Shown: one piece after another, positions 19,781 through 49,272 of the stretch
Layout: the number at the start of each line of letters is the position of its first letter
Numbering within the stretch: position 1 is the stretch's first letter
Origin: a virus
Taxonomy: Duplodnaviria; Caudoviricetes
Length of the DNA stretch: 64,000 nt
IMG/VR virus record: IMGVR_UViG_3300023179_000027
Span: 1-64,000 of that record
Strand: one strand, 5' to 3'
The notes under the pieces: model-generated
The model's input: the letters and a program-made list of their open reading frames with translations, nothing else
What the model was told of the DNA's origin: nothing
Databases searched by the model: none
Position numbers and translations under genes: made by a program

Positions 19781-21243
19781 ATGCCTTAATTTTTACTGGG
19801 TATGAAAACTCACATGGACTAGAGAGAGTGGGCGGAGCATATAGAATATCAACATATTTAAGACCATATGGTTGGAATGTTGAAGTAATAGATTTCTTTT
19901 ATATTTGGGACCTACTTGAATTAATGCAACTTATTGATAAGCGTAATAAACAAGAAAGAATCGAATGGATAGGATTCAGTATAACTTGGTTAAATTATGC
20001 TAGCGAAAACACTCATAAAAAATTAATAGAAATATTAAGCCATGTCAGAAAATATTTTAAACACATTAAAATAATTGCGGGTGGACAAAATCCAAATTTA
20101 GAGTTACAAATTTATAATGATGTTGATTACATCATAAAAGGTTTCGGTGAAGTAGCTATATTAGAATTACTTAAATACTTATATAGTAACGGAAAAAAAC
20201 CAAAAGGAATTCCATGGAAAAATAGTTGGATAATTGATGCTAATGCATTTTATCAAGCATGGCCAATTAAAGATTTATCAATTGAATATCAACCAAATGA
20301 TTTTATTTTTCCAAACGAAACATTAACGCTTGAATTTAGTAGAGGATGCAAATTTGCCTGTGCTTTTTGTAACTTTCCTGTGTTGGGAGTAAAAGAAGAT
20401 ACCACAGTAGATTTAACAATTTTAGAAAATGATTTGCGAAGAAATTATGATTTATACGGTGTAACTAATTATCAAGTAGCTGATGAAACACTTAATGATA
20501 GAGATGAAAAACTTATTAATATAGGTAATATTGTTAACAGATTAAGTTTTGAACCAAATTTTAGTGCATTTATAAGAGGAGATATTTTATTTTTAAGACA
20601 ACAACAATTAGAAATGTTAGTAAATGCCAGAGTATGGGGACATTATTATGGTATAGAAACCTTTAATCATGAAACAGGCAAAATAATAGGTAAAGGATTA
20701 CATCCAGATAAAATTAAGCAAGGGTTATTAACAACAAAGGAATACTTTTATAAACATTTAGGTTTATATAGAGGAACAGTAAGTTTAATATATGGATTAC
20801 CAAAAGAAACTATTCAAACAATTACAGAAGCCCAACAGTGGCTAAAAAATAATTGGGAGGATAATGCAACAATTATTTTTCCTTTCACAATCACTATCAA
20901 TGGTAAAAAATCAAAAATTGATGAGAATTTAGAAAAGTATAATTATAAAATATTAAGTATTGAAAATCGTGATTATTACAATCCAGGTAATAGTTTTTTT
21001 GCAGGGCAGTATATAATTTGGGAAAATCCTGATATGAATTTTAATGATGCAGTAAGATTAGCTAATTTAAAGCTAAATGTAAATGGGTATGATTTACCCG
21101 ATAGCTGGCTCCTATTTTCATTATTTCCATTAGTTGATAATATGCAAAATGCTCTGTTATATAATCTTGAATCAGAATTAAAAATAAATAAAAAAGGAAA
21201 AACAATTAAAAGAGATTACGTTCAAAAAAAATTGGGTATATGA
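19777..21243 (+). CDS. B12-binding-domain radical SAM protein
   Basis: GFS...IIAGG...GFGE N-domain; SRGCKFACAFC; GIET. Confidence 0.85.
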   Translation: MNALIFTGYENSHGLERVGGAYRISTYLRPYGWNVEVIDFFYIWDLLELMQLIDKRNKQERIEWIGFSITWLNYASENTHKKLIEILSHVRKYFKHIKIIAGGQNPNLELQIYNDVDYIIKGFGEVAILELLKYLYSNGKKPKGIPWKNSWIIDANAFYQAWPIKDLSIEYQPNDFIFPNETLTLEFSRGCKFACAFCNFPVLGVKEDTTVDLTILENDLRRNYDLYGVTNYQVADETLNDRDEKLINIGNIVNRLSFEPNFSAFIRGDILFLRQQQLEMLVNARVWGHYYGIETFNHETGKIIGKGLHPDKIKQGLLTTKEYFYKHLGLYRGTVSLIYGLPKETIQTITEAQQWLKNNWEDNATIIFPFTITINGKKSKIDENLEKYNYKILSIENRDYYNPGNSFFAGQYIIWENPDMNFNDAVRLANLKLNVNGYDLPDSWLLFSLFPLVDNMQNALLYNLESELKINKKGKTIKRDYVQKKLGI

Positions 21244-22505
21244 AATCTATTAGCAAAACATTTTGTATGCACCCTTTCACTGGACTAGCTACTAGAGAAG
21301 ATGGATCAGTTAAAGTATGTTGTAGATCATTGCCAATTGGGCACATTGAAAAAGAGTCTTTAGAAGAAATTTGGAATAATAATAATATAAAACTTGTACG
21401 TAAACAAGTTTTAAATAATATACGTCCCAATGTTTGTAAACCTTGTTTTGATCTTGAAGATCAGGGAGTGGAAAGTTTAAGACAGAGGCATATAAATGGA
21501 ATTATTCCTGAATCAAGAATCAAACTTTATCCAAATGCATTAAATCAATTAGCAGATGATTATTCAATGCCATTTACCTTTCCCACAATGGAAATTAAAC
21601 TTAATAATTTATGTAATTTAAAATGCAGGATGTGTCATCCATTGGATAGTACTTCTTGGAATGATTGGGATAAAATTGAAGAATTTTACAGTAAGGAAAA
21701 TAATTACCTAGTCCCTGTAATTAACGAATTAGGACTAAAAACTAGTAGATATATATGCCCATTTGAAAACACAGATAATTGGTGGAATAGTTTTGAAAAA
21801 TTATTACCGCACTTTCGTAGAGTTGAGTTTGCTGGAGGCGAACCATTAATGGATCCTCAACATTACAAAATACTTGATATGTTAAAACCCTATGGAAATC
21901 AAATAGAACTAAAATATGCAACAAATGGAACTACATTAGGAATTAGTAAAAATAGAACAATACATGATTATTGGCCATACTTTAAAAGTATTGCAGTAAA
22001 CGTAAGTATAGACGGGTTACATCAGGTATATAATTATATTCGTACCAATAGTGATTTCATACAGGTTGAAAATAATATAAAAGAAATACAAACTTTACCT
22101 AATATTAGTAGGATTGTTGGGGCGTTTACTGCACAGGCAGGTAATATGCTACAAATTGCTGATTGTATTGATTACTTTATAAACAAGATGAACATTGCAT
22201 TTTATAGTCATAGAGTAAGCTATCCGAATTTTTTATCCGCTCAGGTTTTGCCAATGGACCTAAAAGAAAATATAATAAAAGATTTACAACACATAAGCAA
22301 TAAATTAGACAATTACAGTAATATTAAAAAATTTCCTATACTAAAATCAATTACCTTACAACAAATTCAAGATAATATTAATTATCTTAGTGCAACAGAT
22401 CAATTTAATTTATTTCAAACTTTTATAAATTTTAATATCAAATTGGATAAAAGTAGAAAACAAGATATTTTCTCTATATGGCCTATACTAAAAAATTATG
22501 TTTAA
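21240..22505 (+). CDS. radical SAM protein with N-terminal Twitch/SPASM-like domain
   Basis: FCMHPF..VCC..CKPC then CNLKCRMC, GGEP. Confidence 0.9.
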   Translation: MKSISKTFCMHPFTGLATREDGSVKVCCRSLPIGHIEKESLEEIWNNNNIKLVRKQVLNNIRPNVCKPCFDLEDQGVESLRQRHINGIIPESRIKLYPNALNQLADDYSMPFTFPTMEIKLNNLCNLKCRMCHPLDSTSWNDWDKIEEFYSKENNYLVPVINELGLKTSRYICPFENTDNWWNSFEKLLPHFRRVEFAGGEPLMDPQHYKILDMLKPYGNQIELKYATNGTTLGISKNRTIHDYWPYFKSIAVNVSIDGLHQVYNYIRTNSDFIQVENNIKEIQTLPNISRIVGAFTAQAGNMLQIADCIDYFINKMNIAFYSHRVSYPNFLSAQVLPMDLKENIIKDLQHISNKLDNYSNIKKFPILKSITLQQIQDNINYLSATDQFNLFQTFINFNIKLDKSRKQDIFSIWPILKNYV

Positions 22506-23301
22506 GGTTGTCCTAGCTAATAATAACAGCAGGTATGAGTTATTTTTTAAGTTATTACCTACTGACATAGCTAATCGTTGGTATAAAGAATTATTAAATA
22601 ATTATAGGTTATATGAAACTTTAAGATTTACTGACTTTAAAAATAATAATATTGATTTGTTAATACAAAATGAAATTGATATTATTAATTCATATTTTAA
22701 AATAATTTTTAAAAAATTACCTATTAAACCTACACAAAAAGATTACAATGAACTTCATAAAATTTTCGAAGACTTACGCGGAAACATTGAAGTTGGAACA
22801 AATTTTTACAATTATGCTCCTTCTAATATAAAACAAAGTCTTGAACGATTTAATATATACATACATCAAGCAGAAGCACAATTACGAACAAAGGGAAAAC
22901 ACCCAACAATTGTAGTAACTTTTAAGGATAGGCCTAGGCATTTATTGCTAAAGGAAGATTTTAAACATTTTACAACAAAATGGACTGAAGGCATGGTTTA
23001 TATTAATTATTGCCATGTGGGTAAAACTATATTAGATGCTTATAAAGATAATGATGTTATTTGCAAAAATATAGTGCCTCAAACACATTATAGCGCAGAT
23101 TTTATGATAAAATTTGGTCCTAGCACTAATTATTGGGTTGATTTAACTAGACGTTACTTATTAAAGCGATATATACAAAAAAATAAATTTAATTTTAAAA
23201 ATTATAGTTTAGGAATGATTCCTGTTGCACAGTGCATAACAAAATATAATAAAAATATTTTGAATTTTAATAGAGTGGAATCGATAAAATGTATAGTGTA
23301 A
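22498..23301 (+). CDS. hypothetical protein
   Basis: 267 aa ORF overlapping both neighbours. Confidence 0.7.
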   Translation: MFKVVLANNNSRYELFFKLLPTDIANRWYKELLNNYRLYETLRFTDFKNNNIDLLIQNEIDIINSYFKIIFKKLPIKPTQKDYNELHKIFEDLRGNIEVGTNFYNYAPSNIKQSLERFNIYIHQAEAQLRTKGKHPTIVVTFKDRPRHLLLKEDFKHFTTKWTEGMVYINYCHVGKTILDAYKDNDVICKNIVPQTHYSADFMIKFGPSTNYWVDLTRRYLLKRYIQKNKFNFKNYSLGMIPVAQCITKYNKNILNFNRVESIKCIV

Positions 23302-24182
23302 GAAATGTGTGGGGACATGAGAAGTTTATTAAAATAGAATGGAACCTTGGTAAACGATGCAACTACGATTGTAGCTATTGTCCTTCAGTTATACATGATA
23401 ATTTTAGTAAGCATACTGATTTAGAAATTATAAAATTAGCTATAGATAAATTTAAGGAATTTTCTAAACCAGTTAGATTAAGTTTTACAGGAGGCGAACC
23501 AACAGTACATCCTTATTTTTCTGATATTATTGAATATGTAAATCAAAATAATGTTAATTTTATAAGTGTAACAACTAATGGGACTAGATTACCAGATTAT
23601 TATATTAGTTTAAATGTAACACAATATGTTTTTAGTTTACATTTTGAATATGATTATAATAAGGTTTTACAAACAATTATAAAAGTATTTAAACATAAAC
23701 CAAGTCTTTTAGTAAACATTATGGCACATCATGATTATATGGTAGAAGTTAAAAATGTAGTGAACCTCTTAGAGGAAGCAAAAATTCCTTATAATATAAG
23801 GAGAATACGATGGACTGATTTGGATCATGATGATTTTGATGATAATCGCTATCAACCAAAAGATTTAGATTATGTGCTTAAAACTAATTCCACTGTTAAA
23901 CCTAATTGTGTTATAGATAATGTTGAATATTTGCATGCCAATGATATTATTAAATTACATAAAAATAAATTTAAAAACTTTGAATGTAACGCTGGTTTAG
24001 AGAGTCTAATGATAGATCACGATGGAAGTGTTTACAGAGCAACTTGTAGAGTGGGCGGGTGTTTGGGAAATATATATAAAAACACTTTTATTATACCAAA
24101 CACTAGTGTTATTTGCACACGAGAGTTTTGTACATGTGCAGCAGATATACCTCTTACCAAAGTTTTAAAACAGATGACTTAA
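23289..24182 (+). CDS. radical SAM protein with C-terminal SPASM/Twitch domain
   Basis: CNYDCSYC, GGEP, CNAG...TC...CTREFCTC. Confidence 0.9.
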   Translation: MYSVRNVWGHEKFIKIEWNLGKRCNYDCSYCPSVIHDNFSKHTDLEIIKLAIDKFKEFSKPVRLSFTGGEPTVHPYFSDIIEYVNQNNVNFISVTTNGTRLPDYYISLNVTQYVFSLHFEYDYNKVLQTIIKVFKHKPSLLVNIMAHHDYMVEVKNVVNLLEEAKIPYNIRRIRWTDLDHDDFDDNRYQPKDLDYVLKTNSTVKPNCVIDNVEYLHANDIIKLHKNKFKNFECNAGLESLMIDHDGSVYRATCRVGGCLGNIYKNTFIIPNTSVICTREFCTCAADIPLTKVLKQMT

Positions 24183-25550
24183 TTCAGGTATATAGTTTTT
24201 AATATTAATATTGCGTATTATATCCATTTCTTTAATATATTCTTGCAATCCAGGTATTTCCATAGACATATCTTTGCTATTCATGTGTTCTAACACTGCG
24301 TTCCAACGTTTCCAACCATATGGATTTTTAAGCCAATAATCATCATCTTTACGATAATTTTCATATAACCAACTTTTTAATTCTTTAAATCTTTCACTTA
24401 CATCAATTTTGTCAATTTGTGGTAAAACTTGTATACTTAAAAAGGTAGGAATGTATAATAAATGCATATTAATTATTCCTCCGCCTGCTTCTATTCCACC
24501 TATTGTGTTCGTAAAGTTTATTTTTTTATAATTTTGTTTAATTTTCCACTTTGCTAAATCAGGCAAATGTTTTATGTTAAGTATTTGTATAGCAGTTGCA
24601 ATACTAACATGTATGTTGCTTGGTGTATTATCTAAGCGTTCTAAGTTATTTATAATTGTATTCCAATCGCTTGGATAACGTATATAGTAATTTCTATTCT
24701 CTATAGCATCTATACTAAATCCAATTTTAACTTTTTTAAACTGTTTCCATAAATTAATTATATCTTCGTCAAGTTTTAGTCCATTAGTATTATATCTAAT
24801 TAATATATTATTATGATAACCTTTTCTTATTATTTCTTCTAAAAATAATTTATGTTCCTTTATCATAAGAGGTTCCCCACCGGCAAAATATACTTGCTTT
24901 AAATTTGGTATTTGTTCATAAATTTCTTCCCAAAATTTTGGGTTTTCATGCCAAAAATTATCAAAAGTTTTTCTATCCCATGTCATTTGTTTAATTACAC
25001 TTGAGTTGGTTACTTTTTTCATTAGTTTTTTTTGATCAGATACCCATTGACTACTATCATGCGGACTGCACATAATACATTTAAGATTACATGTATGCCC
25101 CAACCTTAGGTCTAGATAAACTAATTCATTTGGTATGGTTCCATCTTTTTCTGTTTTATTTACAAGTTGGTTAATACTAATTCCACTCTCTACCCATTCT
25201 CCTGTTTCCCATAATCTTTTACTTACAACGCCTTTTGATTCCTCTTCATAACATTTACTACAACTTGCAGGAATATTTCCTTGTAACATTGTAGTTCTTA
25301 CACTACGCATGTACTCATTATTCCATGCACTCAATGGAGTTTCTGTTTTAAAATTAGCAGGTCTACCGCTTTCATTTTTTACTAAACCAATTTCATGGTC
25401 AGTGCCTGCTCCGCTGCTATTACTATTGCAACATAATCTCATATCGCCGTTTGGTCTGGTAGCGAAATGCATCCATGGCAATATACAAAAAGTTTTACTA
25501 CCCGACAACTTCCCTATTTTATTTTGCCATTCATTTATCTTATTAATCAT
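24165..25550 (-). CDS. radical SAM protein with N-terminal Twitch/SPASM-like domain
   Basis: FCILPW..LCC..CSKC then CNLKCIMC, GGEP. Confidence 0.9.
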   Translation of the reverse strand: MINKINEWQNKIGKLSGSKTFCILPWMHFATRPNGDMRLCCNSNSSGAGTDHEIGLVKNESGRPANFKTETPLSAWNNEYMRSVRTTMLQGNIPASCSKCYEEESKGVVSKRLWETGEWVESGISINQLVNKTEKDGTIPNELVYLDLRLGHTCNLKCIMCSPHDSSQWVSDQKKLMKKVTNSSVIKQMTWDRKTFDNFWHENPKFWEEIYEQIPNLKQVYFAGGEPLMIKEHKLFLEEIIRKGYHNNILIRYNTNGLKLDEDIINLWKQFKKVKIGFSIDAIENRNYYIRYPSDWNTIINNLERLDNTPSNIHVSIATAIQILNIKHLPDLAKWKIKQNYKKINFTNTIGGIEAGGGIINMHLLYIPTFLSIQVLPQIDKIDVSERFKELKSWLYENYRKDDDYWLKNPYGWKRWNAVLEHMNSKDMSMEIPGLQEYIKEMDIIRNINIKNYIPELSHLF

Positions 25551-39518: not shown

Positions 39519-40742
39519 ATGTATAATAGATTTGACATTATAGACTTTCAAGTGATTTATGATAAATGGATGGCTAATACCAACCCATTTAATGTTTACA
39601 TACACAGCCCCTTTTGTCAGTCAATTTGTAAGTTTTGTATCTATAAAGGGTTGAAGTACAACAATACTTTATTTGAACAATACTACGATCATTACCTACC
39701 TAAGGTAGTTGATATGTACAGTAACATTTTAGATACTAAAACTAATTTAATTACTAGTTGGTTTTTTGGTGGTGGTACACCGTCATTAATGACAGCTAGT
39801 ATGGCAGATATGTTATTTGATTCTTTACCAAACTTTGCTAATCATCCTAGTGAAAAGGTTTTTGAAATACACCCTGGTGCATACACTGTTGAACTTTTAG
39901 ATGTGCTTAAAAAATACAATTTTACAACTGTAATCATTTGCCAACAAACATTTGATATAGGCACATTAAAACGTCAAAATAGAACTGTATCAGGTATTGA
40001 TACATGTAAAAAGTTGTTTAAGGAGTGCAGAAAACGTGGATTTAAAATAGGATTAGACTTAATAGCTTTTTTAAATCAGCAACCGACTGACATACAAATC
40101 CTACAAAATGATTTAGATATTGTCAGTCAACTTAAACCTGATGAAATTAGTGTACAAACTTTGTATCAGCGTAAAGATTTGACAAGAATGGTTTTGGATT
40201 CTATCTTTAATCATAAACTCATCAAACACTATACTCCTGAATGGGCTGATAAATTGTCAAAAGATGATTTACTTGTTATCAATCAACAATTAAAATGTTT
40301 TAGGTTATTTAATAATAAGACACCTAAAAACAATGAATTTTATAGTTTTACTGGTAATATGGATCCGAATTGGCAAATTTTAAACAATCAATTACAAACA
40401 CTAGCTATTGGTTCTTATAAGAACCAATTGACACAAACACATTCAAACATTAGTGGTTTTAATTACTTTGAGACAAATATTAATAATATTGATCCAGTAT
40501 TTAAGTTTGTCACAAATGACCTAGAGCAAGAAAAGTTATATGTACAAAATGTTCTTAAAGAAGCAAACATTGTTAAATCTGTAGACGATATTGTTTATAG
40601 TCATAGTTTTATCTATGCAAGAGAGATACCTATTATGTTAGATTTTAGTGTACGTAATCTAAATGAACAAGAAGTAGATAATATTATAAAAAAGATACAT
40701 AATAAAAAAAGAATGATGTTAAAAAAATTTAAGGAGAATTAA
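39519..40742 (+). CDS. HemN/HemW-like radical SAM protein
   Basis: YIHSPFCQSICKFC, FGGGTPS. Confidence 0.85.
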   Translation: MYNRFDIIDFQVIYDKWMANTNPFNVYIHSPFCQSICKFCIYKGLKYNNTLFEQYYDHYLPKVVDMYSNILDTKTNLITSWFFGGGTPSLMTASMADMLFDSLPNFANHPSEKVFEIHPGAYTVELLDVLKKYNFTTVIICQQTFDIGTLKRQNRTVSGIDTCKKLFKECRKRGFKIGLDLIAFLNQQPTDIQILQNDLDIVSQLKPDEISVQTLYQRKDLTRMVLDSIFNHKLIKHYTPEWADKLSKDDLLVINQQLKCFRLFNNKTPKNNEFYSFTGNMDPNWQILNNQLQTLAIGSYKNQLTQTHSNISGFNYFETNINNIDPVFKFVTNDLEQEKLYVQNVLKEANIVKSVDDIVYSHSFIYAREIPIMLDFSVRNLNEQEVDNIIKKIHNKKRMMLKKFKEN

Positions 40743-40892
40743 ATGTACAAATATAAATTATGGGTAAAAATAAATGATTTTCAAACTGCCGAAACGATTG
40801 TTTATGCAAATAATGACTTTGAAGCAAAAATGTTAGGTGAAGCACAATATGGTCAAGGTAATGTATTAAATTACACAAGACTATCAGATTAA
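40743..40892 (+). CDS. small hypothetical protein (49 aa, not in ORF track)
   Basis: AAGGAG RBS; MYKYKLWVKINDFQTAETIVYANNDFEAKMLGEAQYG... Confidence 0.7.
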   Translation: MYKYKLWVKINDFQTAETIVYANNDFEAKMLGEAQYGQGNVLNYTRLSD

Positions 40893-40900
40893 AATACAAC

Positions 40901-40975
40901 TCCAGATTAGCTCAGTGGTAGAGCACTGTTTTGATAAAGCAGGGGTCGGTGGATCATTCCCACCATCTGGAACCA
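40901..40975 (+). tRNA. trnI: tRNA-Ile(GAT), atypical T-loop
   Basis: ctgtt-ttGATaa-agcag; T-loop ATCATTC; CCA. Confidence 0.9.
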
Positions 40976-40979
40976 ATAT

Positions 40980-41055
40980 GCCTCTTAAGCTAATCTAGTG
41001 AAAGCGCTGGTCTGAAGAACCAGATAGTCAGGAGCGTAACCTGGAGGAGGCCCCA
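40980..41055 (+). tRNA. trnF: tRNA-Phe(GAA), atypical D- and T-loops
   Basis: ctggt-ctGAAga-accag; T-loop AGCGTAA; CCA. Confidence 0.85.
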
Positions 41056-41056
41056 T

Positions 41057-41329
41057 TTAATTTTCATCTTTGACTTTACCCCAACCTGATTTGGCACGTA
41101 TAGCAAATGCAAGTTCACGCATACGACCGTATTCAGGACTACCTTTTTTATGAGGGCCACTTGATTTTAGTTGGTTATAGCTTTTTAGTAATTCTTGTTT
41201 AGATTTACCCTTGTACTTACCTTTTTCTTCAGGACTTACTACAGTAGGCTTGCCCCATTTCTCATTGATTTGTGTAACAGCTTCATTTATTATGTTTAAA
41301 TATCTACGTAGTAGATCTGGGTTATGCAT
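41057..41329 (-). CDS. small basic protein, possible capsid-internal protein
   Basis: AGGAG RBS and TAAATA upstream; N-terminal IINE/QINE resemble T4-type prohead protease sites (inference). Confidence 0.6.
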   Translation of the reverse strand: MHNPDLLRRYLNIINEAVTQINEKWGKPTVVSPEEKGKYKGKSKQELLKSYNQLKSSGPHKKGSPEYGRMRELAFAIRAKSGWGKVKDEN

Positions 41330-41385
41330 AATTACTCCTTTGTAAATATGTATATGTATTTAATAATAAAAAGGTGTACTTAAGT

Positions 41386-41817
41386 ATGAAACTTGACAAA
41401 ACATTGCTGAAAAATGTTTGTGTTATCGCTAATTTTGATAAACCAAAAAAGAATTTACAATTGGTACAAGAATTGTTTAGGTTGATGAATAAAGAACAAG
41501 GTATAGGATTAGCAGCGAACCAAGCAGGAGTTAATTTGCGTGTTTTTGTTATGTTAGTAAATGATAAACCTTACCATTGTTTTAATCCTAAAATATTAGA
41601 ATATGGTAACGAAAAAGTATCATTCAATGAAGGATGTTTAAGTTTCCCAAATGAACGTTGTGAAATTATTAGACCAGATAGAATACAAGTTAAATATCAT
41701 AGTGCATATGGTGTTGAAACTATTGAGTGGTTAGATGGGCTAGCCAGTCGTTGTTTTCAGCATGAGTTAGACCATTTAAATGGATTAACGATGCATGACA
41801 GAATTACGCCCCGGTGA
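41386..41817 (+). CDS. def: peptide deformylase
   Basis: GIGLAANQAG, EGCLS, QHELDHLNG; short C-terminus. Confidence 0.95.
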   Translation: MKLDKTLLKNVCVIANFDKPKKNLQLVQELFRLMNKEQGIGLAANQAGVNLRVFVMLVNDKPYHCFNPKILEYGNEKVSFNEGCLSFPNERCEIIRPDRIQVKYHSAYGVETIEWLDGLASRCFQHELDHLNGLTMHDRITPR

Positions 41818-41884
41818 CGGAATTGGCATACGTGCATGACTTAGGATCATGATTTTAGGAGTTCGACTCTCCTCTGGGGCACCA
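41808..41884 (+). tRNA. trnL: tRNA-Leu(TAG), short variable arm
   Basis: catga-ctTAGga-tcatg; 77 nt; CCA; overlaps def stop. Confidence 0.9.
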
Positions 41885-41900
41885 AATAACAGGATTTTGA

Positions 41901-42533
41901 ATGGCAAATGGAATTTATAAAATAACTGAAGAATTTGAGAAAGCTATTTCAGATTATACTGGTGCACCTTATGCTATTACAGTTGATAATCAAAGTAACG
42001 CATTATTTTTGGCATTAATGTACATTGGTGTAAAAGATCAAACAATTACTATTCCAAGCAGAACTTATCCTAGTGTTCCTTGCGAAATCATTCATGCAGG
42101 GGCTAAAGTAAAATTTAGTCCTGTAGAAGGAAAAACTATTAAAGGTGCATATCGTTTAGAACCTACACCAGTTTGGGACAGTGCTTTACGCTTTACTTGT
42201 GACATGTATATACCTAAACAGTATATGTGTTTAAGTTTTACTGGCCCATACAAACACTTTAAGTTAAGTAAAGGTGGTTGTATACTAACTGATAATTATG
42301 AGGCAATGTTATGGTTTAAACGTGCTAGATTTAGTGGTCGTCGTGAGTGTAGTTATCATGAGGATCATTTTGACATGTTAGGTTGGAATTTTTACATGAT
42401 GCCTGAATTAGCAGCACGTGGGTTATTATTGATGAATCAGTTTTATAATTCTAGTGATGGCAGCAAAAAACATAATGAAGATATAGAACATGCTTATCCT
42501 GATTTAAGCAAGTTTGAGGTTTACAAAAAATGA
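41901..42533 (+). CDS. DegT/DnrJ/EryC1/StrS-family PLP aminotransferase (short form)
   Basis: YAITVDNQSNAL, WDSA, SFTGPYKHF..KGG, GWNFYM. Confidence 0.8.
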   Translation: MANGIYKITEEFEKAISDYTGAPYAITVDNQSNALFLALMYIGVKDQTITIPSRTYPSVPCEIIHAGAKVKFSPVEGKTIKGAYRLEPTPVWDSALRFTCDMYIPKQYMCLSFTGPYKHFKLSKGGCILTDNYEAMLWFKRARFSGRRECSYHEDHFDMLGWNFYMMPELAARGLLLMNQFYNSSDGSKKHNEDIEHAYPDLSKFEVYKK

Positions 42534-43129
42534 AGTATATTGTTTTTGGTTCGGGTGGATTTGCAAAAGAGGTTATAGGTTACATAGAAAGTGATAATCA
42601 TGAAATCGTTGCAGTTGTGAGTACACAGCCTTTTAATTGTGAAAGTTATAACAAATATAAAGTTTATGAAAAATTAGACAAAGGTATGTTTCCTGATGCA
42701 AAATTTATAATGGCTGTAGGTGATATTAATATTAAAAAAATATTTGTAGAACAAAATGAAAACCGTTGGGGAAATTTTATTCATAGTTCATGTCATGTTT
42801 CTAATCATGCGAAATTAGGTAACGGAATCGTAATGTGTCCTTTTAGTTCTATATTAGGAGATGCCATAGTAGGAGATTTTGTAACATTTAATGTATATTC
42901 ATGCGTTGCACACGATAATAAAATAGGTGATTACGTTACTTTTAGTCCACATTGTGGTACAATGGGTAATTGTGAAATAGGCAATGAATGTTTTTTTGGT
43001 ACTGCTGCCTATTGCATACCAAAAGTAAAATTAGCAGATAAAATTAAAGTTAGTGCTGGATCAATGGTAAGACATTCATATTCAAGCGAATGTACACTTT
43101 TAGGTAATCCCGCTAAACCTCGTACTTAA
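42530..43129 (+). CDS. sugar O/N-acetyltransferase, NeuD/PglD family
   Basis: FGSGGFAKEV, hexapeptide repeats, VAHD, GNPAKP. Confidence 0.9.
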   Translation: MKYIVFGSGGFAKEVIGYIESDNHEIVAVVSTQPFNCESYNKYKVYEKLDKGMFPDAKFIMAVGDINIKKIFVEQNENRWGNFIHSSCHVSNHAKLGNGIVMCPFSSILGDAIVGDFVTFNVYSCVAHDNKIGDYVTFSPHCGTMGNCEIGNECFFGTAAYCIPKVKLADKIKVSAGSMVRHSYSSECTLLGNPAKPRT

Positions 43130-43130
43130 T

Positions 43131-44480
43131 ATGATTATTCCTAGTTTAGAATCACTTAATATTGTTGAAAATATTGCTATTACGATGAAAGAAAAAACTT
43201 TTCATCATCATTATCATTTACTATTGGATATAGCAAATACTTATCCAAAAGATTATAGACTTACTTATTTAGAAATAGGAGCATATGCGGGAGGATCTGC
43301 TTGTTTAATGATGCATAGACCACATACTGATGTTATTAGTATAGATTTAGGTTGGCCTATAGATCCTGAAATTGTATTAAAAAATGTTTGGCAATTTAAT
43401 AAACATCAAAATTCCTATAGCTATATAAAAGGTGACTCAAAATCTGATGATGTAAAAAATAGAGTTAAAAATGTAAAGGCAGATATTTTGTTTATTGACG
43501 GTGATCATAGTTATATGGGTGTTTGGAACGATTTTTTAAATTACAGGCATCTTGTTAATAATGGTGGCTATATAGTTTTTGATGATTACAATGATCATAT
43601 GCATAGTCCAATGGTAAAATCAGCAGTTGATCATATTTGTAACTTAATTACAGATGATTTTGAAATCATTGGAACATTTAGTAATATATTTAATGCAAAA
43701 GGCGACACAAATGAAGCTAAAGACGGTAATTGTTTTGTAATAAGAAAAAAAGATAAATTACCTGGATTTGATATTCCTATTGCAATCTGTATAGCAACTT
43801 ATTATAAAGAAGATGGATCAACAATAAAATTATTAGAAAAAACGTTAGATAGTGTTTTTAATCAAACTTATAAAAATTTTAAAGTATTTTTGTATGGAGA
43901 TCATTATACTAAAGAAGACCAAGTGGTAGAACTTATTAAAAAATATCCTAGTGATAAAATAATTTTTAAGAATATACCTTATGCTAGAGAACGTCAGCTT
44001 CATAAAGATAAAAAAACTCTTTGGAAGTATGGTGGAGTTAATACGGTTAATAAAGCTATAGATTATGCTATAGACTGTGGGTATTCATATGTTGCACGTT
44101 TAGATCATGACGATTTATGGGAGAACAATCATTTACAAGAAATCGTTAATTGTGTTGAAATTACCGGAGCAGATTTTATTTGTACAAGGGCAAAGCATGT
44201 AACAGGATTTACATTGCCTATTATTTTTGAAACTCTAGAAAAATATGTTAAATTTTATCCAATTTATAACCAAATCGTTCATTCTAGTGTATGTATGAAT
44301 TTTGCAAAGATCCCGTTACGTTATAGAGATTTGTGGCTTGATAATGGTTCCATAGATAGCAAAACATTGCCTGGTGATGGTGATATGTGGGAACGTTGTC
44401 GCAAATACATGATAAGTAATAGTTTACGCAGTGTATGTATTAATAAAGTTACATGCATTCATGACACGGAGACAACTTGA
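43131..44480 (+). CDS. methyltransferase - family 2 glycosyltransferase fusion
   Basis: LEIGAYAGGS, LFIDGDHSY, VFDDY; then IATY..SVFNQTY..LDHDD. Confidence 0.88.
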   Translation: MIIPSLESLNIVENIAITMKEKTFHHHYHLLLDIANTYPKDYRLTYLEIGAYAGGSACLMMHRPHTDVISIDLGWPIDPEIVLKNVWQFNKHQNSYSYIKGDSKSDDVKNRVKNVKADILFIDGDHSYMGVWNDFLNYRHLVNNGGYIVFDDYNDHMHSPMVKSAVDHICNLITDDFEIIGTFSNIFNAKGDTNEAKDGNCFVIRKKDKLPGFDIPIAICIATYYKEDGSTIKLLEKTLDSVFNQTYKNFKVFLYGDHYTKEDQVVELIKKYPSDKIIFKNIPYARERQLHKDKKTLWKYGGVNTVNKAIDYAIDCGYSYVARLDHDDLWENNHLQEIVNCVEITGADFICTRAKHVTGFTLPIIFETLEKYVKFYPIYNQIVHSSVCMNFAKIPLRYRDLWLDNGSIDSKTLPGDGDMWERCRKYMISNSLRSVCINKVTCIHDTETT

Positions 44481-45259
44481 ATAAAATACCTGTGATCGGT
44501 ACAGCTATTGTTAATACTGTAAGTTGGTTAGAAAAACTTATTGCCAGTGTAAATTATCCAACTGAAAATTTTGTTATTATTAATAATAATGGGCGTGGAC
44601 AATTAACCGATGATATTAATTCATTGTGTAATAAACCACATCCTTATATACAAAACTTTCATCCTGTACATTTGCCACGTAATATTGGATGTTCTGGAGC
44701 TTGGAATTTAATTATTAAGTTGTTTATGAATAGTCCATATTGGATTATAACAAATCACGATGTTGAATTTACTGAAGGTTTTTTAGATAAAATGGTAAGT
44801 TTAGCGAGTGACCCAATCTATGGTATGGTGCATGGACATGGTGGGCCTACAAGTTTTATGGGTGGCTATAGTTTATTTTTAATACGTGATTGGGTTGTGC
44901 GAGATTTTGGTTTATTTGATGAGAACTTTTATCCTGGTTATGCAGAAGATACTGATTATGAAATGCGTTTTTTGATAAAGCCTATTAAACGTCATTTATC
45001 AGTAGGAATACCATATAAGCATGGTGGCACTTTTGAGTATGGGATAAGCGGGTCACAAACATGGCGCCAAGATATGACATTAAAAGACAAAATTGATCAT
45101 GGTCGTTATATAAATGAGTTAGAGTATATGACTAAAAAATGGGGACCAAATTGGAGAAATTGTCAACCATGGGAGTTCCCATTTAATATACAAGGCAATC
45201 CTATTAGTGCTACCAGTTATGATTTAAGTTTTGTTCGACGAAAAAATTTAGGATTCTAA
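44477..45259 (+). CDS. family 2 glycosyltransferase-like protein
   Basis: NIGCSGAWN, NHDV, GLFDENFYPGYAEDTDY. Confidence 0.82.
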   Translation: MNKIPVIGTAIVNTVSWLEKLIASVNYPTENFVIINNNGRGQLTDDINSLCNKPHPYIQNFHPVHLPRNIGCSGAWNLIIKLFMNSPYWIITNHDVEFTEGFLDKMVSLASDPIYGMVHGHGGPTSFMGGYSLFLIRDWVVRDFGLFDENFYPGYAEDTDYEMRFLIKPIKRHLSVGIPYKHGGTFEYGISGSQTWRQDMTLKDKIDHGRYINELEYMTKKWGPNWRNCQPWEFPFNIQGNPISATSYDLSFVRRKNLGF

Positions 45260-47211: not shown

Positions 47212-47784
47212 ATGCAGAAAATATCAGACCTTATAACAGTTGTTGACAATTTTGTAGACAAGAGTTTTTGTAAAAAAACCTACAATTTTTTATTAGGTAA
47301 GACAAATTGTCCTTATTATAATGATAACAATATGCCATGGTTCATTGGAAACAATGTTTTTTATTATAATATTGATAACAAAGCTCTTAATAAAAAAGTA
47401 ATTGAAATAAACTACAGTGTAGCAGAGTTGTTAACAACTATCCACAAGGTACAAGTTTATCCACATTTTTGTGATTTAGTACTATGGCGTGAAGGGCAAA
47501 GCATGGAGAGACATGTAGATGATGGCTCCAACTCTAATAATAGAGAAGATTTAAATATGCGTAAATATTCTGCAATTTTATATCTTAATGATGATTATAT
47601 TGGGGGTAAAACTTTTATCAAAGTTACAAATGAAACTGATTACTTTTCTGTTCCAAAGACAGGAACATTGGTTATGTTTACAGGAGACTCTAGGTCTGCT
47701 CATGGAGTAACTAAAATAGAAAAGGGTAACAGGGGAACTATTGCAATGTGGTTTTGCACTGATAAGCAGTTTTGCCAAATGTAG
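47212..47784 (+). CDS. prolyl 4-hydroxylase-like 2OG-Fe(II) oxygenase
   Basis: HVD, SAILYLNDDYIGG, HGVTKIEKGNR. Confidence 0.9.
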   Translation: MQKISDLITVVDNFVDKSFCKKTYNFLLGKTNCPYYNDNNMPWFIGNNVFYYNIDNKALNKKVIEINYSVAELLTTIHKVQVYPHFCDLVLWREGQSMERHVDDGSNSNNREDLNMRKYSAILYLNDDYIGGKTFIKVTNETDYFSVPKTGTLVMFTGDSRSAHGVTKIEKGNRGTIAMWFCTDKQFCQM

Positions 47785-48253: not shown

Positions 48254-48715
48254 ATGAAAAAATTGAATATTCCTGTAACAATGTTAGGTCCTGCGAGGCA
48301 GTGTGGTACTTGTACTGCATGTTGTGAAGGTTGGTTAGAAGGTGAAGCATACGGGTATAACTTTTTTTCAGGAAAAATGTGTCACTATAAAGGCGAAAAC
48401 AATTGTACTATTTATAAAAATCGCCCTGAAGAACCTTGTAAAACTTATAAGTGCGAATGGTTAGTAAACCATAGTATACCAGAATGGATGAAGCCTAGCT
48501 TATCAAAGGTTATCATAACTAAACGTCTAAAAAAAGGTATAACTTATCTTGAAGTTATAGAAGCAGGGCAAAAAATAGATAGCACTGTATTAAATTGGCT
48601 TTTCGTAGAGCATTTAAAGGGTACTATTCCTAATCTTGCATACAAAGTAAACAATGGTCAAAATTATTTAGGAAGTCAAGATTTCATAGAGATGGTACAG
48701 CAGGTTGACAATTAA
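48254..48715 (+). CDS. Cys-rich YkgJ-like (CxxCxxCC) metal-binding protein
   Basis: CGTCTACC, CTIYKNRPEEPCKTYKCEW. Confidence 0.75.
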   Translation: MKKLNIPVTMLGPARQCGTCTACCEGWLEGEAYGYNFFSGKMCHYKGENNCTIYKNRPEEPCKTYKCEWLVNHSIPEWMKPSLSKVIITKRLKKGITYLEVIEAGQKIDSTVLNWLFVEHLKGTIPNLAYKVNNGQNYLGSQDFIEMVQQVDN

Positions 48716-48733
48716 TCAGTCATCACATATAAT
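48705..48733 (+). promoter_or_regulatory. sigma70-type promoter for main tRNA block
   Basis: TTGACA-17-TATAAT. Confidence 0.9.
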
Positions 48734-48801
48734 GCTTGTATTGAATGACTTGTACGCAAGTTAACACTTAAATGTTCATTAACAATTGATGTACACATTT
48801 T

Positions 48802-48876
48802 GCACCGTTCGACTATCGGTTAGGTCGTTACCCTTTCAAGGTAAAAAGATGGGTTCGACTCCCATACGGTGTACCA
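48802..48876 (+). tRNA. trnE: tRNA-Glu(TTC)
   Basis: ttacc-ctTTCaa-ggtaa, CCA. Confidence 0.95.
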
Positions 48877-48933
48877 TTTTTATTTATTTTAATGAGTAAA
48901 GTTGCCAGTAAAACATATAAAATAATTATAAAT

Positions 48934-49008
48934 GCGGGTATAGCTCAGAGGAAGAGCAAATGGCTTTTAACCATTAGGTCGTAGGTTCGATCCCTGCTAC
49001 CCGTACCA
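48934..49008 (+). tRNA. trnK: tRNA-Lys(TTT)
   Basis: aatgg-ctTTTaa-ccatt, CCA. Confidence 0.95.
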
Positions 49009-49014
49009 AACAAA

Positions 49015-49102
49015 GGGTGTTGCCCCCGTCGGCGGACTGTAAATCCGTTACTCTAAGAGATGGGAAGTTGAGTTCGTGGAGCGTTACCATCAACACCCAC
49101 CA
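49015..49102 (+). tRNA. trnY: aberrant tRNA-Tyr(GTA)-like RNA lacking a D-arm
   Basis: gggtgttg/caacaccc acceptor, gcgga-ctGTAaa-tccgt, ACCA end. Confidence 0.75.
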
Positions 49103-49108
49103 AACAAT

Positions 49109-49182
49109 CGCGGGTTGTAGAAATGGCATCTAACCAGTCTCATAAGCTGGAGTTGGGGGTTCGACTCCCTCACCCGCAACCA
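49109..49182 (+). tRNA. trnM: tRNA-Met(CAT), initiator-like acceptor
   Basis: C1:A72 mismatch, ccagt-ctCATaa-gctgg, CCA. Confidence 0.9.
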
Positions 49183-49272
49183 AGATGCACAGTCTCGCTT
49201 TACGCTGTGGCAGGATGGCCTCTCAGACTGCGACTAGAGTCCTACTTGCAAGGTTGGACATAGCACAAATTT

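What the first reader, a model, noticed from the sequence alone, without database searches (positions are those of the whole stretch)
49015..49102. D-armless tRNA-Tyr-like RNA with an 8/4 acceptor/T-stem
Seen: an 8-bp acceptor (gggtgttg/caacaccc) with only about 8 nt (cccccgtc) in place of the D-arm. It has a perfect Tyr anticodon arm, a variable region of about 26 nt containing GGGAA that might pair with the C-run, a 4-bp T-stem with loop AGCGTTA, and A73-CCA. It is the only Tyr tRNA in the window. Known: D-armless tRNAs are typical of mitochondria, and 8/4 folds are described for allo-tRNAs. Inference: a novel tRNA architecture or a decoy for anti-phage nucleases.
Basis: partly seen in the sequence, partly recalled or inferred. 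Interest (0 to 1): 0.7.

Follow-up and report, generated by a model that had tools for sequence, protein, structure and literature searches.

The report
Rewired tyrosine tRNA lacking a D-arm
A tyrosine tRNA gene carried by giant phages and by extra tRNA gene arrays in some bacteria has no D-arm hairpin and instead pairs that strand with an enlarged variable loop, a fold I could not find described for any bacterial or phage tRNA.

Summary
Window 49015-49102 is an 88-nt gene with an 8-bp acceptor, a 4-bp T stem with loop AGCGUUA, a Tyr (GUA) anticodon arm, A73 and CCA, but no D hairpin. ARAGORN and Rfam miss it.

It is neither a deletion remnant nor an assembly error. I found 82 distinct versions at about 133 places: 105 viral loci and 28 places in bacterial MAG contigs.

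Covariation supports two extra helices. P3 pairs nt 36-39 with nt 56-59 and crosses P2 as a pseudoknot. On a sequence-only alignment of 69 sequences, 97.2% of cells pair against 73.3% in shuffles, and 22 of 27 pairs change on both sides.

AAGU after P2 matches the AAG D-loop motif of cloverleaf tRNAs that share this T-loop.

The gene fills the Tyr slot. Of 1136 ARAGORN-called tRNAs in 73 class-B loci, one is a canonical Tyr. Two complete ~360-kb phages carry one copy each and no TyrRS. Bacterial copies sit in supernumerary tRNA arrays beside a normal tRNA-Tyr.

Best reading: a working tRNA-Tyr with a rewired core. Expression and charging are untested, and evasion of defence nucleases is speculative.

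The parts
49015..49022 (+). Acceptor stem, 5' strand (nt 1-8); pairs with 49091-49098
   Evidence: 8 bp. 99.1% of cells paired and 7 of 8 pairs changed on both sides in 69 sequences. The 8th pair is G:C in 66 and U:A in 3.
49023..49024 (+). Two-nt linker C9 C10
   Evidence: CC in 52, AU in 20 and UU in 6 of 81 distinct sequences.
49025..49030 (+). P2, 5' strand (nt 11-16, CCCGTC); takes the place of the D-arm
   Evidence: Pairs with 49059-49064. 98.1% of cells paired, 5 of 6 pairs changed on both sides. 257 of 258 cells paired in 43 viral sequences, with 0 of 5000 permutations as good. Predicted independently by RNAalifold.
49031..49031 (+). G17, wobble partner of U35 (49049); analogue of the 26:44 layer
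   Evidence: 17:35 is G.U in 57, A.C in 16 and other in 8 of 81. Reading it as a pair is inference.
49032..49048 (+). Anticodon arm: 5-bp stem GCGGA/TCCGT, loop CTGTAAA, anticodon GTA at 49039-49041
   Evidence: 99.4% of cells paired, 4 of 5 pairs changed on both sides. 66 of 67 class-B-type hits found with an anticodon-independent pattern have the loop CTGTAAA.
49050..49053 (+). P3, 5' strand (nt 36-39, ACTC); the stem of the variable arm
   Evidence: Pairs with 49070-49073. Columns 37:64 and 38:63 are paired in 69 of 69 sequences with 3-4 pair types. ACUC/GAGU changes to ACCU/AGGU within the window's own subfamily.
49054..49058 (+). A-rich loop L1 (TAAGA) between P3 5' strand and P2 3' strand
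   Evidence: 2-10 nt long and 56% A over 81 sequences.
49059..49064 (+). P2, 3' strand (nt 45-50, GATGGG), lying inside the enlarged variable loop
   Evidence: See P2 5' strand. C13>U goes with G48>A, and U15>C with A46>G, among the closest relatives.
49065..49068 (+). AAGT (nt 51-54): proposed stand-in for the D-loop nucleotides that dock on the T-loop
   Evidence: AAGT in 79 of 81; AAGG and AAGA in one each, both with altered T-loops. Cloverleaf tRNAs with T-loop AGCGTWA have AAG in the D-loop in 14 of 15, against 169 of 1070 for TTCRA tRNAs. The docking itself is inference.
49070..49073 (+). P3, 3' strand (nt 56-59, GAGT); crosses P2, giving a pseudoknot
49076..49090 (+). T arm: 4-bp stem GTGG/CCAT and 7-nt loop AGCGTTA
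   Evidence: 98.6% of cells paired, 2 of 4 pairs changed on both sides. GUAG/CUAU variants occur. In the sample unbiased for the 3' half, the loop is AGCGTTA in 41 of 42 distinct sequences.
49091..49098 (+). Acceptor stem, 3' strand (nt 77-84)
49099..49102 (+). Discriminator A (A73 equivalent) and encoded CCA
   Evidence: The discriminator A is invariant in 69 of 69. The tail is ACCA in 77 of 81.

Best explanation
The element is a real gene for a tyrosine-type tRNA (anticodon GUA) with a rewired core, here called 'class B'.

Shown by sequence and covariation:
- The acceptor and T branch is 8 + 4 bp.
- The anticodon arm is standard.
- There is no D hairpin.
- The six nucleotides after the acceptor (nt 11-16) pair with six nucleotides inside a greatly enlarged variable loop (P2).
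- The variable stem itself (P3, nt 36-39 with 56-59) crosses P2, so the core is a pseudoknot.

Inferred:
- P2 stacks on the anticodon stem through a 17:35 wobble and replaces the D stem.
- The AAGU that leaves the top of P2 docks on the variant T-loop AGCGUUA, as D-loop G18/G19 dock on a normal T-loop. The RNA would then still be L-shaped with a 12-bp acceptor branch.
- The RNA is cut out of the tRNA array transcript, charged by the host TyrRS (A73, G1:C72 and GUA are kept) and reads UAY codons.

The gene belongs to mobile, near-complete tRNA sets of about 360-kb phages and of long tRNA arrays in bacterial (mostly Verrucomicrobiota-labelled) contigs, where it is the Tyr member.

The confidence given is for 'real gene with this fold that works as a tRNA-Tyr'. 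I put the fold alone at about 0.95 and the nuclease-evasion reason at about 0.3.
For: Gene boundaries: homologues in contigs with unrelated flanks begin and end exactly at GGG...ACCA.

Structure:
- On MAFFT alignment A2 (69 distinct sequences, not fitted to any structure), 97.2% of 1844 cells pair against 73.3% in shuffles. 22 of 27 pairs change on both sides. The covariation score is 0.612 against 0.161. No shuffle out of 500 reaches any of the five measures. Slid controls score 0.048-0.085.
- RNAalifold alone returns the acceptor, P2 and the anticodon stem.
- P2 pairs in 257 of 258 cells, and P3 forms 3-4 bp in 43 of 43 sequences. Permutation tests give 0 of 5000 for each.
- In the final tally of 82 distinct sequences, P2 is 6/6 in 74, 5/6 in 7 and 4/6 in 1.

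Tyr role:
- 66 of 67 hits found without using the anticodon have the loop CUGUAAA.
- The discriminator A is invariant and G1:C72 occurs in 66 of 69. A73 and G1-C72 are bacterial Tyr identity elements (PMC9976931, passages read).
- In 73 class-B loci, 1136 ARAGORN tRNAs cover the other 19 amino acids (31-100 each), with one canonical Tyr.
- Two CheckV-100% phage records (357,559 and 364,554 bp) have 27 Rfam tRNAs each, one class-B gene each, no canonical-Tyr pattern match that looks like a tRNA, and no TyrRS.

Elbow: the AAG D-loop goes with the AGCGUWA T-loop in cloverleaf tRNAs of the same contigs (14 of 15 against 169 of 1070).

Feasibility: E. coli EF-Tu, ribosome and a synthetase accept a D-armless tRNA (PMC11551756, abstract and passages read).

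Nuclease rationale: Septu and retron-Eco7 cut tRNA-Tyr in the variable arm, and T5 tRNA-Tyr escapes through a different variable loop (PMC13096335, passages read).
Against: - There is no evidence of expression, processing or charging. The two RNA runs laid gave nothing on the element.
- For the single window sequence, the nested part of the model scores -25.4 kcal/mol against an MFE of -30.2 for another fold. Pseudoknot energy is not counted.
- The T-loop lacks the T54-Psi55 consensus and the stem has only 4 bp, which could impair EF-Tu, ribosome or modification-enzyme contacts.
- Most sequences were found with patterns that required the anticodon loop, AAGT or the T-loop. Invariance of those motifs is therefore partly by ascertainment. 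The 5'-half-only scan relieves this for the 3' half only.
- The gene is dispensable in at least some carriers. All 5 bacterial genomes tested also have a normal tRNA-Tyr. One viral locus (L151) has both. One copy (L267) lacks its 3' acceptor strand.
- Nothing here tests the nuclease-evasion idea.
Confidence: 0.75

Rival explanations
1. It is a tRNA-like decoy or sponge. It would be transcribed and folded as described but not used in translation, and it would bind or absorb a tRNA-Tyr-directed nuclease, or another tRNA-binding defence protein, so that real tRNA-Tyr survives.
For: tRNA-Tyr is a known target of Septu and retron-Eco7, and extra phage tRNA-Tyr relieves the defence (PMC13096335, passages; PMC11555353, abstract listing). 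The non-canonical T-loop and missing D hairpin could make it a poor translation substrate. Bacterial carriers keep a normal tRNA-Tyr.
Against: A decoy should resemble the target's cut site, yet the variable arm is the most remodelled part. The features needed only for charging and decoding are kept: A73, G1:C72, CCA, a 12-bp acceptor branch and the full anticodon loop. In phages with near-complete tRNA sets it is the only Tyr candidate.
Confidence: 0.12
2. It is a decaying pseudogene: a tRNA-Tyr that lost half of its D-arm and is drifting.
For: tRNA finders reject it. One broken copy exists (L267).
Against: There are 82 distinct sequences that keep every helix through compensatory changes. The ends are exact and CCA is retained. 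The design is present in two complete jumbo phages and in distant bacterial arrays.
Confidence: 0.02
3. It is an assembly or sequencing artefact in this contig.
For: None beyond its oddity.
Against: Contigs of two independent DNA runs match the window without a difference: X2 over 48700-49126, and X3 over 48969-49044 and 49015-49126. The same design occurs in 104 other viral loci.
Confidence: 0.005
4. It is a working tRNA with GUA anticodon that is charged with an amino acid other than Tyr (for example by SerRS or LeuRS through its long extra region), so that it recodes UAY.
For: Class II tRNAs (Leu, Ser, Tyr) have close identity sets (PMC9976931, passages), and the remodelled variable region changes what a synthetase sees.
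Against: A73 plus G1:C72 plus G34-U35 is the bacterial Tyr set. There is no other Tyr tRNA in the complete phage sets, so recoding would remove Tyr from phage proteins.
Confidence: 0.03

Closest known systems
Canonical bacterial class II tRNA-Tyr (e.g. the stand-alone genes of the same Verrucomicrobiota-labelled genomes, L243/L245/L246)
   Same: GUA anticodon in the loop CUGUAAA, A73, G1:C72, encoded CCA, long extra region, similar length (85-86 nt against 86-93 nt).
   Different: The canonical form has a 7/5 branch, a D hairpin with GG and the T-loop UUCGAAU. Class B has an 8/4 branch, no D hairpin, 22 instead of 31-33 nt before the anticodon loop, a variable loop that supplies the second strand of the 'D' helix, and the T-loop AGCGUUA.
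'Class A' phage tRNA-Tyr with the same T-loop
   Same: Anticodon arm, T-loop AGCGUUA, an AAG-type motif opposite it, a variable stem such as GUC/GAC, and a place in phage tRNA arrays.
   Different: Class A keeps a 3-5-bp D hairpin (loops such as UAAAGAC and AUAAGUGA) and a short variable loop. Class B has moved the 3' strand of that helix and the AAG motif into the variable loop.
(8/4) tRNA-Ser, tRNA-His and allo-tRNAs of bacteria and phages (Mukai et al. 2017, PMC5389517; passages read)
   Same: A 12-bp acceptor branch split 8/4; long variable arm; found in phage tRNA gene clusters.
   Different: Those tRNAs keep a D-arm, described as a long stem with a tetraloop. None is described for Tyr in the passages I read. 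That paper's supplementary figures could not be opened.
Mitochondrial D-armless tRNAs (bovine tRNA-Ser(AGY), nematode tRNAs)
   Same: No D hairpin. A connector strand replaces it (PMC7609411 and PMC11551756, passages). Older models extend the anticodon helix with the connector; this is recalled, not checked here.
   Different: Those are organellar, shortened and flexible, with a short variable region and lost D/T-loop contact. Class B is full length, adds a 6-bp helix and a crossing 3-4-bp helix, and keeps a candidate elbow contact.
Phage tRNA-Tyr used against Septu / retron-Eco7 (T5, T6)
   Same: A phage-borne tRNA-Tyr. In T5, resistance is ascribed to a distinct variable loop (PMC13096335, passages).
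   Different: Those are ordinary cloverleaves. No test links class B to any defence system.
Long horizontally transferred tRNA arrays ('L-arrays', Santamaria-Gomez et al. 2021, PMC8421152; passages read)
   Same: The bacterial copies sit in dense same-strand arrays (21 tRNAs in 8 kb in L232), additional to the housekeeping genes and sporadic within the phylum.
   Different: The passages I read mention no non-cloverleaf member.

Membership tests
Cloverleaf elongator tRNA (Rfam RF00005, ARAGORN model) | Acceptor stem closed by the 5' and 3' ends, discriminator, CCA | tested here: met
   8 bp instead of 7; 99.1% of cells paired; ACCA tail in 77 of 81.
Cloverleaf elongator tRNA (Rfam RF00005, ARAGORN model) | D-arm hairpin with G18 G19 in its loop | tested here: not met
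   Only 9 nt lie between the acceptor and the anticodon stem. 22 nt precede the anticodon loop, against 31-33 in class A.
Cloverleaf elongator tRNA (Rfam RF00005, ARAGORN model) | 5-bp anticodon stem, 7-nt loop with U33 and purine 37 | tested here: met
   GCGGA/UCCGU with loop C-U-GUA-A-A; 99.4% of cells paired.
Cloverleaf elongator tRNA (Rfam RF00005, ARAGORN model) | 5-bp T stem with a T-Psi-C-R-A loop | tested here: not met
   The stem is 4 bp and the loop is AGCGUUA.
Cloverleaf elongator tRNA (Rfam RF00005, ARAGORN model) | Recognised by the family's models | tested here: not met
   There is no RF00005 match on 49015-49102 even at E<=10, while the four neighbours score 52-70 bits. ARAGORN does not call it.
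Cloverleaf elongator tRNA (Rfam RF00005, ARAGORN model) | Aminoacylated and used on the ribosome | not testable with these tools
   No RNA or biochemical data. The RNA runs laid showed nothing on the element.
Bacterial tyrosine identity set | A73, G1:C72, G34 U35 (PMC9976931, passages) | tested here: met
   Discriminator A in 69 of 69; G1:C72 in 66 of 69; loop CUGUAAA in all.
Bacterial tyrosine identity set | Long variable arm presented as in class II tRNAs | tested here: inconclusive
   A 3-4-bp variable stem (P3) exists, but its loop is tied into P2. Its orientation is unknown.
(8/4) allo-tRNA-like tRNAs (Mukai 2017) | 12-bp acceptor branch split 8/4 | tested here: met
   The 8th acceptor pair covaries (G:C in 66, U:A in 3). 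nt 61 cannot pair with nt 77, since both are C in the window.
(8/4) allo-tRNA-like tRNAs (Mukai 2017) | tRNA-Sec-like D-arm (long stem, tetraloop) | tested here: not met
   There is no D hairpin. The feature is as described in PMC5389517.
Mitochondrial-type D-armless tRNA | D hairpin replaced by a short connector | tested here: met
   nt 9-16.
Mitochondrial-type D-armless tRNA | Organellar, shortened molecule with reduced variable region | tested here: not met
   86-93 nt, with a 26-nt extra region, in phage and bacterial contigs.
Member of a mobile tRNA gene array (phage array or bacterial L-array) | Lies in a dense same-strand run of tRNA genes that duplicates housekeeping functions | tested here: met
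   The window has 23-24 tRNAs on the + strand between 39.3 and 53.5 kb. L232 has 21 tRNAs in 8 kb. Hosts have a separate tRNA-Tyr.
RNA pseudoknot | Two helices whose strands interleave, each supported by covariation | tested here: met
   The order is P2a < P3a < P2b < P3b. P2 has 5 of 6 and P3 has 4 of 4 pairs with changes on both sides.

The most novel reading that the evidence does not exclude
Class B is a fully active tyrosine tRNA whose core was rebuilt under pressure from tRNA-Tyr-specific defence nucleases: the D hairpin was deleted, and the variable loop was recruited as the second strand of a D-like helix in a pseudoknot. On this reading the cut site and recognition surface of Septu/PtuAB-like enzymes no longer exist, while TyrRS, EF-Tu and the ribosome still accept it. 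It would be the first natural non-cloverleaf tRNA of the bacterial world. Together with the AAG/AGCGUUA elbow, it would be a ready-made scaffold for orthogonal translation.
Probability: 0.3. Interest if true: 0.9.

Novelty: new variant of a known kind. Interest (0 to 1): 0.85.

Why it matters
[quoted passage not shown] The 2020 review of non-canonical tRNAs lists D-arm loss only in mitochondria (PMC7609411, passages).

- **A counter-example.** If class B is active, it is a natural one: an old, diversified, widespread tRNA of phages and bacterial arrays that builds the L-shaped core from different strands.
- **Missed annotations.** Standard tRNA finders miss it, so phage and array tRNA sets reported as 'lacking Tyr' may be complete.
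- **A testable link to defence.** It gives a concrete test of the idea that tRNA-targeting immunity shapes phage tRNA structure.
- **A scaffold for engineering.** It offers a compact, naturally evolved alternative fold for engineering orthogonal tRNA and synthetase pairs.

Tried and rejected
- **Single-sequence folding.** The MFE fold keeps only the acceptor and is not significant. It was no use for deciding the structure.
- **A 5-bp T stem GAUGG/CCAUC (nt 45-49 with 73-77) and a 23-nt loop.** Rejected: G48>A in L002, L003 and L005 would break it, while C13>U restores P2.
- **A local variable hairpin CUC-UAA-GAG (nt 37-45).** Rejected: the best local stem is only 1-3 bp across 43 sequences, and it fails in the ACCU/AGGU relatives.
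- **An intron, a permuted gene or a recent deletion.** No rearrangement restores a D hairpin, and the design is shared by all 82 versions.
- **Searches that found no copy.** Megablast of the array against GenBank phages matched only tRNA-Met fragments. blastn of the element against 50,697 phage records found nothing. A Verrucomicrobiota-type copy against 72,556 plasmids found nothing.
- **A phage TyrRS (PF00579).** None in G000 or in five other class-B records. Fragments cannot show absence; the two records rated complete can.
- **RNA evidence.** Run X17 gave short contigs on neighbouring tRNAs with 3-4 differences and none on the element. Run X20 gave nothing. This is no evidence either way.
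- **Phylum scan with model R1.** Of 151 genomes, only the query genome matched (2 copies), plus one weak hit that is not a Tyr gene. Only 29 candidates per genome were scored, so the result is 'not found in those searched'.
- **The 90-nt spacer 49183-49272.** Tested as a possible second odd tRNA. It has no structure signal (z 0.14) and no Rfam match.
- **Host of the window's phage.** Not determined. The best protein matches are 49-54% identical RNR subunits of Xanthomonas, Ralstonia and Stenotrophomonas phages, which says little.

Full report
**What is at the coordinates.** Window 49015-49102 (+ strand) lies between tRNA-Lys (48934-49008) and tRNA-Met (49109-49182), inside a same-strand array of 23 ARAGORN tRNAs at 39.3-53.5 kb.
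- The window is the first 64 kb of a 130,630-bp viral record that CheckV rates 37% complete.
- Neither ARAGORN nor the Rfam tRNA model reports anything on the 88 nt, even at E<=10, while the four neighbours score 52-70 bits.
- The array otherwise covers 18 amino acids. This counts a Phe gene at 40980-41052 that only Rfam finds. Tyr and Ala are missing.

**It is a conserved gene, not an accident.**
- An exact search for the anticodon arm in viral contigs gave seven loci in which the same 88 nt begin and end at the same bases while the flanks differ.
- Three wider pattern scans of viral contigs and one of species-representative genomes raised this to 82 distinct sequences at about 133 places. 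These are 105 viral loci including the window, and 28 places in bacterial MAG contigs. One of the 134 loci counted there, L253, repeats L223.
- Contigs of two independent DNA runs are identical to the window over the element.
- GenBank phages and PLSDB plasmids hold no copy.

- 70 loci have a short spacing between anticodon loop and T-loop. I call these class A.
- 42 loci have the long spacing of the window. I call these class B.
- 6 loci are chance matches in other DNA.
- Class A (44 distinct sequences in 69 loci that passed an acceptor check) always has a D hairpin of 3-5 bp, with loops such as UAAAGAC or AUAAGUGA, and 31-33 nt before the anticodon loop. Class B has 22 nt. So relatives with a normal D-arm exist, but as a separate lineage. 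The window's design is shared by all class-B members.

**The structure.** Parsing by fixed anchors showed that nt 11-16 always pair with the six nucleotides just before an AAGU motif (P2). In the same parse, nt 36-39 pair with nucleotides just after it (P3).
- In 43 distinct viral sequences P2 is paired in 257 of 258 cells, with 3-5 standard pair types at four positions.
- P3 has three positions paired in 43 of 43, with 2-3 types each.
- Re-pairing strands between sequences never did as well (0 of 5000 for each, with the P3 register refitted in the control).
- On a plain MAFFT alignment of 69 distinct viral and bacterial sequences (A2), the pair counter gave 97.2% of 1844 cells paired, against 73.3 +/- 0.7% in shuffles. 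22 of 27 pairs changed on both sides, and the covariation score was 0.612 against 0.161. No shuffle of 500 reached the observed value on any measure.
- Sliding the partners by 1-3 columns dropped pairing to 31-53% and the score to 0.048-0.085.
- Per helix, the share of cells paired was:

| Helix | Cells paired |
|---|---|
| Acceptor | 99.1% |
| P2 | 98.1% |
| Anticodon stem | 99.4% |
| P3 | 87.5% |
| T stem | 98.6% |

- About eleven rows are shifted by one column in P3, which lowers its figure.
- RNAalifold, given no hint, returned the acceptor, P2, the anticodon stem and part of the T stem.
- The strands run P2a, anticodon arm, P3a, loop, P2b, AAGU, P3b, so P2 and P3 cross and the core is a pseudoknot.
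- The loop between P3a and P2b is 2-10 nt long and 56% A.
- nt 17 and 35 switch between G.U (57) and A.C (16), as a wobble layer would.

**The elbow.** The T-loop AGCGUUA is not private to this gene. In the same contigs it occurs in otherwise ordinary cloverleaf tRNAs (Ile, Cys, Trp, Gln, Phe, Ala and class-A Tyr), and as AGCGUAA in the window's own tRNA-Phe.
- Among distinct ARAGORN-called tRNAs, 14 of 15 with this loop have AAG in the D-loop region. Of 1070 with a TTCRA loop, 1067 have GG there and 169 have AAG.
- In class B the AAGU therefore looks like the D-loop part of this alternative elbow, moved to the 3' side of P2. That it docks on the T-loop is inference.
- The motifs are not absolutely fixed. 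A scan that constrained only the 5' half found T-loop AGCGUUA in 41 of 42 distinct sequences with perfect acceptors and UGCGUUA in 1. A small subfamily outside those 42 has AAGG with UGCAAUU.
- A second copy in one bacterial genome has AAGA with AGCAUUA.
- Most other sequences were found with patterns that demanded these motifs, so their invariance is partly by ascertainment.

**How it probably works (inference from here on).**
- P2 (6 bp) plus the 17:35 layer plus the anticodon stem (5 bp) would form one continuous arm.
- The two-nucleotide linkers at each side (nt 9-10 and 60-61) would tie both ends of this arm to the acceptor/T junction.
- P3 would lie beside P2, with AAGU bridging their tops next to the T-loop.
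- The 8 + 4 branch keeps the 12 bp that EF-Tu reads (stated in PMC5389517).
- A73, G1:C72 and G34-U35 are the bacterial tyrosine determinants (PMC9976931), and they are kept.
- Bacterial translation can use a D-armless tRNA without adaptation of EF-Tu, ribosome or synthetase (PMC11551756).

**It fills the Tyr slot.**
- With a pattern that ignores the anticodon, 66 of 67 hits with a perfect 8-bp acceptor have the loop CUGUAAA. The remaining hit has another loop and I did not inspect it further.
- In 73 class-B loci ARAGORN called 1136 tRNAs for the other 19 amino acids (31-100 each) and one canonical Tyr, in L151.
- Two class-B-bearing viral records rated 100% complete (357,559 and 364,554 bp) each have 27 Rfam tRNAs, exactly one class-B gene in the array, no tRNA-like match to a canonical-Tyr pattern, and no TyrRS.
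- The window's record, at 37% of an expected genome, fits this size class.

**Not only phages.**
- Of the 27 loci from species-representative genomes, 20 are in MAGs labelled Verrucomicrobiota or one of its orders, some on contigs of 1.3-5.9 Mb.
- There the gene again sits in dense tRNA arrays (21 tRNAs in 8 kb in L232, 17 in L239) next to ordinary metabolic genes.
- All five genomes tested also carry a normal stand-alone tRNA-Tyr.
- One genome has two arrays with one copy each.
- A covariance model found no further carrier among 150 other sampled genomes of that phylum, with limited sensitivity.
- This matches the horizontally transferred, supernumerary 'L-arrays' described for several phyla including Verrucomicrobia (PMC8421152).
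- Seven other loci are in MAGs of unrelated labels. One of them is identical to a viral sequence, so some may be phage contigs binned with bacteria.

**Why such a fold.** This is the weakest step.
- tRNA-Tyr is a target of Septu and retron-Eco7 nucleases, which cut in the variable arm.
- T5's own tRNA-Tyr is reported to escape through a different variable loop (PMC13096335).
- In class B the variable loop is locked into P2 and the D-arm surface is gone. Escape from such enzymes is therefore an attractive reason, but nothing here tests it.
- A decoy role is the main rival. Pseudogene and artefact readings are contradicted by the covariation and by independent assemblies.

**Novelty.**
- Seven full-text searches and passages of the most relevant papers were read: PMC5389517, PMC7609411, PMC11551756, PMC8421152, PMC13096335, PMC9976931 and PMC11555353.
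- None describes a bacterial or phage tRNA without a D hairpin, this pseudoknotted core, or the AAG/AGCGUUA elbow.
- Subscription journals and the closed supplements of PMC5389517 (phage tRNA clusters) are not covered.
- I rate it a new structural variant of a known kind of molecule, of high interest. The caveat is that expression, charging and decoding remain to be shown.

Noticed in passing
window 40980-41052 (+): A tRNA-Phe (GAA) that ARAGORN misses and Rfam scores at only 38 bits. Its T-loop is AGCGUAA and its D-loop (AAUCUAGUGAA) has no GG. It has the same alternative elbow as the Tyr gene, but in a normal cloverleaf.
   Followed up: partly
loci L093, L004, L101, L134, L142, L038, L048, L072 (ARAGORN tRNAs listed): An alternative tRNA elbow: the T-loop AGCGUUA goes with an AAG (not GG) D-loop in Ile, Cys, Trp, Gln, Phe and Ala tRNAs of uncultivated phages (14 of 15 against 169 of 1070). 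I found no description of this motif pair.
   Followed up: partly
70 viral loci (e.g. L009, L019, L076): 'Class A' phage tRNA-Tyr: a cloverleaf with D-loop UAAAGA or AAGU and T-loop AGCGUUA. ARAGORN called it in only six of these loci (L019, L050, L053, L056, L058, L081), so phage Tyr tRNAs of this type are probably under-annotated too.
   Followed up: partly
L255 (second copy in genome G001), L258/L261/L266, L257: Rare class-B variants change the AAGN motif and the T-loop together: AAGA with AGCAUUA, and AAGG with UGCAAUU. UGCGUUA occurs with AAGU. This may be a tertiary covariation, but there are too few cases to tell.
   Followed up: no
L151 and L267: L151 carries both a class-B gene and a canonical tRNA-Tyr. 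L267 carries a class-B 5' part whose 3' acceptor strand is missing (a broken copy or a recombination joint).
   Followed up: no
window 39519-45259 and 47212-47784: Protein genes are interspersed in the tRNA array: radical SAM, a DegT-type aminotransferase fragment, a methyltransferase-glycosyltransferase fusion, a second glycosyltransferase and a 2OG-Fe(II) oxygenase. Two further radical-SAM genes lie at 21240-25550. They may be nucleic-acid or sugar modification genes.
   Followed up: no
window 49183-49272: A 90-nt gap in the array between tRNA-Met and tRNA-Asp, with no Rfam match and no structure signal (z 0.14). The window has no tRNA-Ala.
   Followed up: yes
L241 5666-5734 and L234 6482-6553 (bacterial arrays): ARAGORN calls a tRNA with anticodon UUA ('Stop') in L241 and a tRNA-His with anticodon AUG in L234, within the Verrucomicrobiota-labelled arrays that hold class B. 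They could be suppressor-like or miscalled genes.
   Followed up: no
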